A stretch of DNA of 50,852 nt from a virus (lineage: Duplodnaviria; Heunggongvirae; Uroviricota; Caudoviricetes): IMG/VR virus record IMGVR_UViG_2690315827_000001, one strand, 5' to 3'. Of this stretch, positions 3,001 through 6,000 are shown piece after piece (within the stretch, counting starts at the first letter, position 1; the number at the start of each line of letters is the position of its first letter). The position numbers are program-made.

Positions 3001-6000
3001 AAAGGACCACCACATTGCGGCGAAGTTTTCCCCTGCGTACCGGTGCCCGTGACACCACTTCTTCTTTCAGCACATTCGCACCCGCACGGGTTGCCTCACG
3101 CAGCACCCGGTTATTTTCCGCACCACTCAGAAGCTGCAAATGCGGCTGATGTCCTCCAGCCCCGAAAAATCCAGCAGGGTTTCGATCATTTTTCCCTCCC
3201 AGCCGACAGAGAATTTCCAGACGCCCGCCGGTTGCATCCGGAACCGGGACCCGACGACTTCAGGACATGGTCACGCCAGGGACCACTCAGCACATGAAGT
3301 CGTGACGCCGCCGTGATTTCACGACCAGACTGACCGCGTACCCAGATGCGGATTTCCGCCTGCGCCATTTCCGCACCGGACTGCATCCGCTCCCGGCTGC
3401 TCCTGCCCCGGATATCCGCATGAATTTTCCCGCATGACACCATTCTTCCGTCATTTCTCCGGCAGCATTACGGGTTAACACCGGGTTCAGAACACTGATC
3501 ATCTGTGTCAGACGACCTGCAGATATTGCCATTCCCCTCCTCATAACACCGTCGGACAACGCAAATCGTAAATCAGCACGGAAACAGAAAACGGCAGTTC
3601 CCCTGCACGAGGTCTTCCCGCTCAGCAAGATCCGGATTCCGGTACAGCATCCCGGTCAGTCGCATGGCAGCCCCCTTCATCCGGGTTAATGCCTCACCAG
3701 GGATCAGCTCACCGTCCACTAATCACTTTATCCCGGCTGCCCTGGATGTAGGCCAGCAGCACGGCGGTAGCCTGACGAACCTTGTCCATCAGCATCTCAT
3801 CATCCGCGTCATGGTCAACACGCAGATGTGCCTTGATTTCTTCCAGTGTCAGTAATGCTGTCACTTTCCACCTCCTGCATCCCGCCACGTTTTGCAGCCA
3901 GAGTCCAGCCTGATGAATGAGCTTCTCCGGGCTTATCACCGGTCATACTGTTGCAGTGCCACAACGAGCCCCACGTCACCGTATCGCCGGGGTGGTAAGT
4001 TTCGCCGATTCTGAACACACCACGGTAGAGCATCACCGGCAGGGAAAATGTTTTTTCCGTACGCTGGCCACTGCTCTGCCGGACCACCAGAGAGACCGTT
4101 CACCCGTCATGCTGACGTCAATATCCGCCACCCCGTCAACCAGGCATTCCCATCCCCGCATCCCGTACGTTTTTTCATACGCCGCCAGAGTCCACCCTGG
4201 TGTGTGGCATACGAGCCCCGGGGAAAGGATTTTTGATCGTCAATGGCGGGGAGTATTTCCAGTGCCGTGGCATCACGCCCGTCCTGCGGAGCCGGCAGGG
4301 CACTCACCGCCTCCAGAACCGCCTTCTGCAGAACATCCGGATCGTAGTCACGACCATCACGCGGAACAGGAATATGGCTTACCGCCTCCTTCACCATCTG
4401 TTCAAGCATCGGATGCACATCATCCGGAGTGATACTTTTACCGTCTGCCGGTACCGGTATTTTCGCGACCGCATCATTCACCGCCTTCTGCAGAACATCC
4501 GGATCGTAGTCACGACCATCACGCGGAACAGGAATATGGCTTACGCCTCCTTCACCATCTGTTCAAGCATCGATGCACATCATCCGGAGTGATACTTTAC
4601 CGTCTGCCGGTACCGGTATTTCGCGACGCATCATTCATTCTGCAGAACATCCGGAAGTCACGAAAGGAATCACTGCCTCTTTCACCATCTGCTCAAGCAT
4701 CGGACGCACATCATCCGGGGTGATACTTTTGCCGTCTGCCGGTACCGGAATATTCGCAACCGCATCATTCCTTCTGCAGAACATCCGGATCGTAGTCACG
4801 ACCGTCGCGCGGAACAGGAATATGGCTCACTGCTCTTTCACCATCTGCTCAAGCATCGGACGCACATCATCACCCGTCACGCACTTCTGTAATACCACAG
4901 ACTGAGAAGCCAGTTTTTCTTCAAACGTTTGTGCGCGGCTATTTTCTCCTCAAATGTGCGCTGTAAATCCGCCAGCACTGTGGAAAATTCTTCTCCCAGT
5001 GCACGAATAATGGACAGTTCCCGTTCCGTCATTTTCTCAGTATCCCCCTGAACATCGCTTTCACCGCATCATGCTCTGTTTCACTGATTGCCTTATTACC
5101 GTCAGATGCGCCGTCAGGCAGCTGTGATGAAACTGTTTCCCGGCAGACGCGAACGGATCCTCACGGGCATCACGACGGGACAGCGCCTCCAGACTGTAGT
5201 TCTGCTGCTGAAGATACAGTGCATCACGCCGGCCAGGGGCGGCAGGTTCTCCCGTTTACGGGCCTCATTGGGCGTGAGAAGCGTATTTTTCACCGCATCC
5301 CCAGCGTTTTCATGCGCCGCTCACTGTCCATTCTCAGCAGCGTGGTGACATCAAATTCTGTACTCTCGTTTTCCCCGTTTCCAGCGCCTCATCCAGTAAC
5401 AGTTCAATGGACTCAATCAGCGTCTGCAGGCACTGGGAATAATACTGCTGCTCCAGCGCCTCCACGTTGTCACTGGAAGGCGGTTGTCCCACGCCAATCT
5501 TGTAGGCCGGGACACGGAACACGAACAGACAATTTCAGCGGTCATCTTCAGTTGTTCCACCGTCTGCGCATCCACCGGTGAAAACGTCGTGGGGTTGTAT
5601 TTTGCCCCGTTGCTCAGAATGGCCGTTTTCCCCGCATTTTCGCCTGTATACCCGCTGTCCCAGTTGCTCTTCAGTTTTTTCGCATTTTCTTCCGTAATAC
5701 TGCCGGGGATCTCAATCACCCCGGACGGCCTGCCGCCATTTCTGAAAAAAGACGTCGAATTTTCCTGAATATGATGCCCCTGCGTGGCCGCCAGCCCGGC
5801 GGCATACACCGGCGGCAATCCTATAAGCGGATGAAAAAAACAGTTAAACCGGTCGTGGATCACTTCCCGGGCAGGCACCGTCACCGCCTCCGTGATCCCG
5901 CAGTTCCGGTCCGGCGTGATGCGGTAGAACACCTCGCCGTCATCCGCCACCAGAGGTTCAACCCGGCTCCAGTCCAGAATACGCAGTTCTTTGATCTGCC

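What the first reader, a model, noticed from the sequence alone, without database searches (positions are those of the whole stretch)
3861..5032. Virion-module gene built from nucleotide-identical 162-bp tandem repeats
Between portal and the gp6 connector lies a gene whose body is about 3.5 tandem copies of a 162-bp unit (4318-4890) encoding a ~54-aa module with two sub-motifs (IPVPADGKSITPDDV, IPVPRDGRDYDPDVL). The first two units are near-identical at DNA level and the last two share variant substitutions, suggesting recent expansion. Its stop overlaps the gp6 start (GTGA), implying co-translation with head-tail joining proteins. I do not recognise the family; it could be a capsid decoration or head fibre protein with variable copy number.
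Basis: partly seen in the sequence, partly recalled or inferred. Interest (0 to 1): 0.6.

Follow-up and report, generated by a model that had tools for sequence, protein, structure and literature searches.

The report
Repeat-built phage fibre gene beside portal
The flagged stretch is a real but uncharacterised phage gene next to the portal gene, built from a variable number of 54-residue repeats and ending in a sugar-binding-like knob; it is probably a virion fibre, databases mislabel it "portal protein", and this window's copy is riddled with sequencing deletions.

Summary
Window 3861-5032 (minus strand) is the Sp6/CP-933M-type E. coli O157 prophage gene between the HK97-type portal and the gp6-like Ad1 adaptor. 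In the window it is not an intact ORF. Against Sakai it has 0 substitutions and 51 deleted bases, 39 of them in the repeat array. The window's two overlapping ends carry different deletions, so these are sequencing or assembly errors.

Intact relatives have 3.66 units of 162 bp, 93-97% identical to each other. Unit number ranges from 0.5 to 6.5 among E. coli phages, always in 162-bp steps.

One G in a poly-G tract 11 nt upstream of the ATG decides the gene structure. G5 gives a separate gene, which is ancestral and seen in about two thirds of alleles. G6 gives an 861-aa portal fusion, which explains the "portal protein" label.

The protein belongs to a large uncharacterised family (5,674 clusters at 50% identity, PHROG 1289), always downstream of a portal gene. 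The model shows an N-terminal helix, 27-residue helix-loop repeats and a confident C-terminal beta domain with a CBM5/12 chitin-binding-like fold that also resembles phage fibre tips.

Best reading: a variable-length accessory virion fibre (inferred, confidence about 0.5).

The parts
3861..5032 (-). Gene 'X': an uncharacterised phage protein of PHROG 1289. It is 407 aa when intact. In the window it is broken by 51 deleted bases.
   Evidence: Mapped from Sakai and YYZ-2008. ORF fragments are listed. It matches PHROG 1289 and 2271 over its full length.
4872..5032 (-). N-terminal helical segment (aa 1-55, MTERELSIIRALGEEF...). It is modelled as one long helix and is the presumed anchor or oligomerisation segment.
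   Evidence: AlphaFold2 model with alignment A1: helix 3-49, pLDDT 90-95. The role is inferred.
4318..4871 (-). Tandem array of 3.66 units of 162 bp in intact relatives. Each unit encodes 54 aa, made of two 27-aa helix + [IL]PxPxDGxD sub-repeats. In window coordinates, coding-order unit 1 is 4716-4871, unit 2 is 4585-4715, unit 3 is 4425-4584, and unit 4 (degenerate in its last third) is 4263-4424.
   Evidence: TRF on Sakai gives period 162, 3.7 copies and 97% matches. Unit comparison is and mapping with deleted bases. Helices alternate with 12-residue loops in the model.
3861..4262 (-). Conserved C-terminal beta domain (about 135 aa). Its last 50 residues or so (roughly 3861-4030) have a CBM5/12 chitin-binding-like fold.
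5044..5048 (-). Poly-G tract (C5 on the + strand) 11 nt upstream of X's ATG. G5 gives a separate portal gene (its TGA at 5029-5031 overlaps the ATG) and a separate X gene. G6 gives one fused portal-X ORF.
   Evidence: Junction alignment of Sakai, YYZ-2008, WGPS2 and Stx1_499. The window reads G5, but this position has no second read.
3969..3972 (-). Second poly-G tract, inside the CBM-like domain. It reads G4 in the window. Sakai Sp6 has two more bases here and is frameshifted, truncating X to 379 aa. YYZ-2008 encodes TWGGSLWHC in frame.
5029..6384 (-). HK97-type portal gene (454 aa in G5 alleles). It carries 10 deleted bases in the window.
   Evidence: PF04860 at aa 54-382. TIGR01537 equivalog at 362 bits. 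Mapping.
3541..3864 (-). gp6-like head-tail adaptor Ad1. Its GTG start overlaps X's TGA stop (GTGA).
   Evidence: PF05135. Annotations. Sequence.
50527..50852 (-). Second, partial copy of the same array at the other end of the window. It is the same locus read again in a terminal overlap and carries a different set of deletions.
   Evidence: TRF gives period 160 and 2.0 copies. The head and tail copies differ by 1 substitution and 77 gap positions.

Best explanation
The region encodes 'X', a structural-module protein of lambdoid and HK97-like siphophages. Its gene sits immediately after the portal gene and immediately before the Ad1 head-tail adaptor gene.

X has three parts: an N-terminal long helix, a rod built from a variable number of 27-residue helix-loop units, and a conserved C-terminal beta knob with a CBM5/12-like carbohydrate-binding fold. 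In E. coli the rod units are organised as 54-residue (162-bp) tandem repeats. These expand and contract by unequal recombination.

I infer that X is an accessory virion fibre displayed at the portal vertex, neck or head. Its knob would bind a surface glycan to aid reversible adsorption, and its reach would be set by the repeat number.

In the ancestral state (G5) X is translated from its own ATG, coupled to the portal stop (ATGA). A 1-nt expansion of an upstream G run (G6) fuses it in frame to the portal C-terminus. That fusion is the source of the database label 'portal protein'.

The copy in this window is an error-laden read of a normal Sp6/CP-933M-type allele with 3.5 units.

Shown: the gene anatomy, the repeat polymorphism, the G5/G6 switch, the size of the family, its synteny with portal genes, the fold of the knob, and the error nature of the deletions. 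Inferred: location in the virion, glycan binding, and the role of rod length.
For: Identity and anatomy.

The deletions are errors.
- There are 0 substitutions, 0 insertions and 22 deletions against Sakai across window 3600-5300.
- Indels cluster in kb 0-8 and 46-51 of the window.
- The window's first 4.6 kb and last 4.7 kb are the same sequence with different indels.
- The window is a circular permutation of the prophage.

Separate gene as the ancestral state: PAJU2 gp07, IME307, SP-016_00155, RHph_X2_26, BP-4795 ORF59, Lys8385Vzw_06, WGPS2 and Stx1_499. The SP-016 portal ends ...AMIRGFLTK*, like the E. coli G5 ending ...AMFRGILRK*.

G5/G6: counts were 46:29 and 54:25.

Repeat number: 0.5, 1.5, 2.5, 3.5, 4.5 and 6.5 units. 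Differences between units are mostly synonymous (4:1, 10:2 and 6:1 codons), so the repeat is translated and under constraint.

Family: 5,674 clusters with E<1e-3 and 645 with E<1e-30. Among the best 150 listed, most are 250-500 aa and match through to their C-terminus; the ten read out or scanned are stand-alone except one portal fusion.

Synteny: in 7 of 7 diverse loci X lies downstream of a PF04860 portal. Collagen-repeat proteins, one with a pectate-lyase-like beta-helix, share the slot in two of them.

Fold: the model has pLDDT 80 overall and 97-98 in the knob. It matches CBM5/12 domains, phage 7-7-1 and Milano fibre or receptor-binding proteins, and collagen-repeat, ChiC_BD and tail-fibre proteins in BFVD.
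Against: No virion proteomics, microscopy or genetics for any family member was found.

The in-frame fusion to the portal C-terminus occurs in about a third of E. coli alleles, including the functional Stx2c phage 2851, and in one distant 1,237-aa protein. From general knowledge of solved portals, the C-terminus lies inside the capsid, so a fusion is awkward for an external fibre.

The CBM_5_12 sequence score is below Pfam's threshold.

The rod region is modelled with only moderate confidence (pLDDT 55-70), and the oligomeric state is unknown.
Confidence: 0.5

Rival explanations
1. X is an internal, portal-tethered head protein. It would be bound to, or in G6 alleles covalently continuous with, the portal crown inside the capsid. 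It would act like a P22-type barrel, a T7-type core or a MuF/SPP1 gp7-type minor head protein that organises or accompanies the DNA.
For: The gene sits immediately downstream of the portal gene in every locus examined. In-frame portal-X fusions are common in E. coli and present in the functional phage 2851. A fusion is also present in a distant 1,237-aa protein. Both ORF halves stay intact in most G6 alleles.
Against: Fusions are rare outside E. coli: 1 of the 10 listed homologues whose sequences were read or scanned, and 0 of 7 diverse metagenomic loci. In E. coli they trace to a 1-nt homopolymer insertion, mostly on one haplotype. The knob has a carbohydrate-binding or fibre-tip fold. Collagen and beta-helix fibre genes share the slot. 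Length varies from 245 to more than 960 aa, which is unusual for a protein packed with the DNA. There is no Pfam MuF match.
Confidence: 0.15
2. X is an assembly factor (a scaffold or portal-incorporation chaperone). It would be present in proheads and then removed by the S78 protease that is fused to the capsid protein.
For: The N-terminal two thirds are elongated and helical, like many scaffolding proteins. The gene lies in the head-assembly block, and the capsid gene is a protease-linker-capsid fusion. Cleavage would explain why the portal fusion is tolerated.
Against: The most conserved and best-folded part is a beta knob with a glycan-binding fold, not the helices. The capsid protein already carries a linker of about 230 aa that could serve as a scaffold. 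Free variation in repeat number is hard to reconcile with a dimension-setting scaffold.
Confidence: 0.1
3. The G5/G6 tract is a recoding or phase-variable switch. Ribosomal slippage or slipped-strand mutation would make both free X and portal-X fusion from one locus, for example to tether a few fibres to the portal.
For: X lies in the -1 frame of the portal. In G5 alleles the glycine codon GGG in the run is followed by ATA, and AGG and AGA lie nearby; these are rare codons in E. coli (general knowledge). tRNA-Gly can re-pair perfectly one base back (sequence). Both alleles are common and both keep intact ORFs.
Against: There is no canonical X XXY YYZ heptamer. Distant relatives have no homopolymer and have stop codons in the X frame upstream of the ATG. 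Most G6 alleles (22 of 25) share one junction haplotype, which fits descent from one mutation plus a few recurrences. A run of 5-6 G is short for phase variation.
Confidence: 0.07
4. The window's copy is a genuinely decayed pseudogene, or the repeat array is an assembly artefact.
For: There are many frameshifts in the window. Asadulghani et al. 2009 score the Sp6 portal function as defective (PMC2669165). Sakai Sp6 has a real frameshift in the second G tract.
Against: The differences are deletions only, with zero substitutions, which is not a mutational spectrum. Two copies of the same locus in the window have different deletions. The deletions hit every gene near both window ends. None of 1,252 matching complete-genome records exceeds 96.9% identity, so none shares them. 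The Sakai reference genome has the uninterrupted 3.7-unit array, and 1,194 complete genomes cover 80% or more of the region.
Confidence: 0.05

Closest known systems
HK97-type phage portal protein (Pfam PF04860, NCBIfam TIGR01537). This is the label the region carries in RefSeq, INPHARED and PHROGs 1289 and 2271.
   Same: It is adjacent to the true portal gene, and in G6 alleles it is covalently continuous with it.
   Different: X has no portal domain. PF04860 ends at residue 382 of the fused ORF, and X alone hits neither PF04860 nor TIGR01537. In most phages X is a separate gene. The label is an annotation carry-over.
CBM5/12 chitin-binding modules (Serratia ChiB, Streptomyces ChiC and Vibrio chitin deacetylase binding domains)
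   Different: The Pfam score is below threshold (20-25.7 bits against 26.2). The module is attached to a phage structural protein rather than an enzyme. The ligand is unknown.
Phage fibre and receptor-binding proteins with CBM-like tips (Agrobacterium phage 7-7-1 tail fibres 9rkv, Milano receptor-binding complex 8fqc, collagen-repeat/ChiC_BD proteins in BFVD)
   Same: Rod-plus-knob layout and the fold of the knob. Collagen-repeat genes occupy the same portal-adaptor slot in some relatives.
   Different: There is no sequence homology. The rod is built from 27-residue helix-loop units, not collagen or beta-helix. The gene lies in the head-neck block, not the tail block.
T4 fibritin (wac) neck whiskers and other accessory head or neck fibres (phi29 gp8.5, SPP1 gp12, RcGTA head spikes). 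This comparison is from general knowledge.
   Same: Segmented helical rod, a small C-terminal folded domain, a gene next to neck genes, and a dispensable-accessory character that would fit free length variation.
   Different: No sequence or fold match was found. Trimer state and attachment site are untested. The knob is CBM-like rather than a foldon.
MuF / SPP1 gp7-type minor head proteins encoded just after the portal gene (general knowledge; Jamet et al. 2017, PMC5576092, was listed but not read)
   Same: Gene position directly downstream of the portal gene, and variable C-terminal regions.
   Different: No PF04233 match. The conserved part here is the C-terminal knob, not an N-terminal MuF domain.

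Membership tests
HK97-type portal protein (PF04860 / TIGR01537) | Sequence match to the portal domain profile | tested here: not met
   In the 861-aa fused ORF the match covers only aa 54-382. X alone (P0117 and 8 stand-alone homologues) has no portal hit. The upstream 454-aa gene scores 362 bits on TIGR01537.
PHROG 1289 (stand-alone X) / PHROG 2271 (fused form) | Full-length profile match | tested here: met
   X matches PHROG 2271 positions 455-859 (E 1e-270) and PHROG 1289 (E 2e-198). Eight distant stand-alone homologues match PHROG 1289 at E 1e-77 to 1e-153.
CBM5/12 carbohydrate-binding module | Pfam PF02839 score at or above the gathering threshold (26.2 bits) | tested here: not met
   20.3 bits for the E. 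coli protein and 17.9-25.7 bits for homologues. Some homologues carry a precomputed PF02839 hit.
CBM5/12 carbohydrate-binding module | Three-dimensional fold of the module | tested here: met
CBM5/12 carbohydrate-binding module | Binding of chitin, GlcNAc polymers or other glycans | not testable with these tools
   Needs pull-down or glycan-array assays with the purified C-terminal domain.
Variable-number tandem repeat within a coding sequence | Head-to-tail units, in-frame period, copy-number differences between alleles | tested here: met
   Period 162 (54 codons), 3.7 copies, 97% matches. Allele spans differ by multiples of 162 nt: 752, 914, 1076 and 1238 nt. Protein lengths are 245, 353, 407, 461 and 569 aa.
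Collagen-like phage fibre / decoration protein | G-X-Y triplet repeats (PF01391) | tested here: not met
   No PF01391 hit in X. Neighbouring genes in L099 and L104 do have it.
MuF-like minor head protein | PF04233 domain; gene directly after the portal gene | tested here: not met
   No Pfam hit. Only the positional criterion is met.
Programmed -1 ribosomal frameshift site | Slippery heptamer X XXY YYZ with an open -1 frame, conserved among relatives | tested here: not met
   The E. coli G5 site reads C AGG GGG A, which is non-canonical. PAJU2, IME307, SP-016 and RHph_X2_26 have no homopolymer and have stop codons in the X frame upstream.
Virion fibre (accessory adhesin) | Presence on the outside of mature virions; oligomeric rod | not testable with these tools
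   No proteomic or structural study of a family member was found. No multimer modelling was available.

The most novel reading that the evidence does not exclude
The poly-G tract upstream of X's ATG is a functional switch rather than a neutral mutation. By slipped-strand mutation and/or ribosomal slippage at AGG-GGG-ATA, these phages would make both free X and a portal-X fusion. Some of the twelve portal subunits would then carry a repeat-length-tunable appendage. That appendage would be either an internal portal extension of a new kind or a tether that is later cleaved.
Probability: 0.08. Interest if true: 0.7.

Novelty: new variant of a known kind. Interest (0 to 1): 0.4.

Why it matters
Many genomes carry this protein under the names "phage portal protein" or "gp6-like head-tail connector protein", although it is neither. 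Recognising it as a separate, very widespread family (5,674 clusters at 50% identity) corrects that annotation.

If it is a glycan-binding virion fibre, then the lambdoid prophages of E. coli O157 and other STEC, including Stx1 and Stx2c converting phages, have an unstudied adsorption determinant. Its length changes in 54-residue steps between otherwise near-identical phages. That could bear on host range and on the spread of Shiga toxin genes.

The repeat and the two G tracts also explain why this locus breaks short-read assemblies and is often annotated as a pseudogene. They are useful typing markers for telling apart the many similar prophages in one genome.

Tried and rejected
- Tandem Repeats Finder on the window found nothing at this locus, because of the deletions. 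It succeeded on the intact Sakai copy.
- A single-sequence AlphaFold2 run was useless (pLDDT 41). The run with alignment A1 was good.
- A PDB sequence or profile search gave only designed helical-repeat proteins (a composition and periodicity match), All3316 and weak chitinase binding domains. No homologue has been solved.
- The first homologue search was swamped by partial E. coli 'portal' fragments.
- The search for related loci with alignment A1 failed because no conserved stretch was found.
- The afdb50 fold library was unavailable.
- Klebsiella homologues annotated 'gp6-like head-tail connector' looked like possible X-Ad1 fusions. Had they been, that would have placed X outside the capsid. 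They are plain stand-alone X proteins with their own triple repeat.
- NCBIfam has no model for X.
- Pfam PF28083.1 is precomputed on many hits, but it is absent from the local Pfam copy and from the papers held, so I could not learn its name.
- Literature searches on portal extensions, Sp6, PAJU2 and head fibres found no study of this protein.
- I considered and rejected real pseudogenisation of the window copy, and the idea that the repeat is an assembly expansion (see rival explanations).
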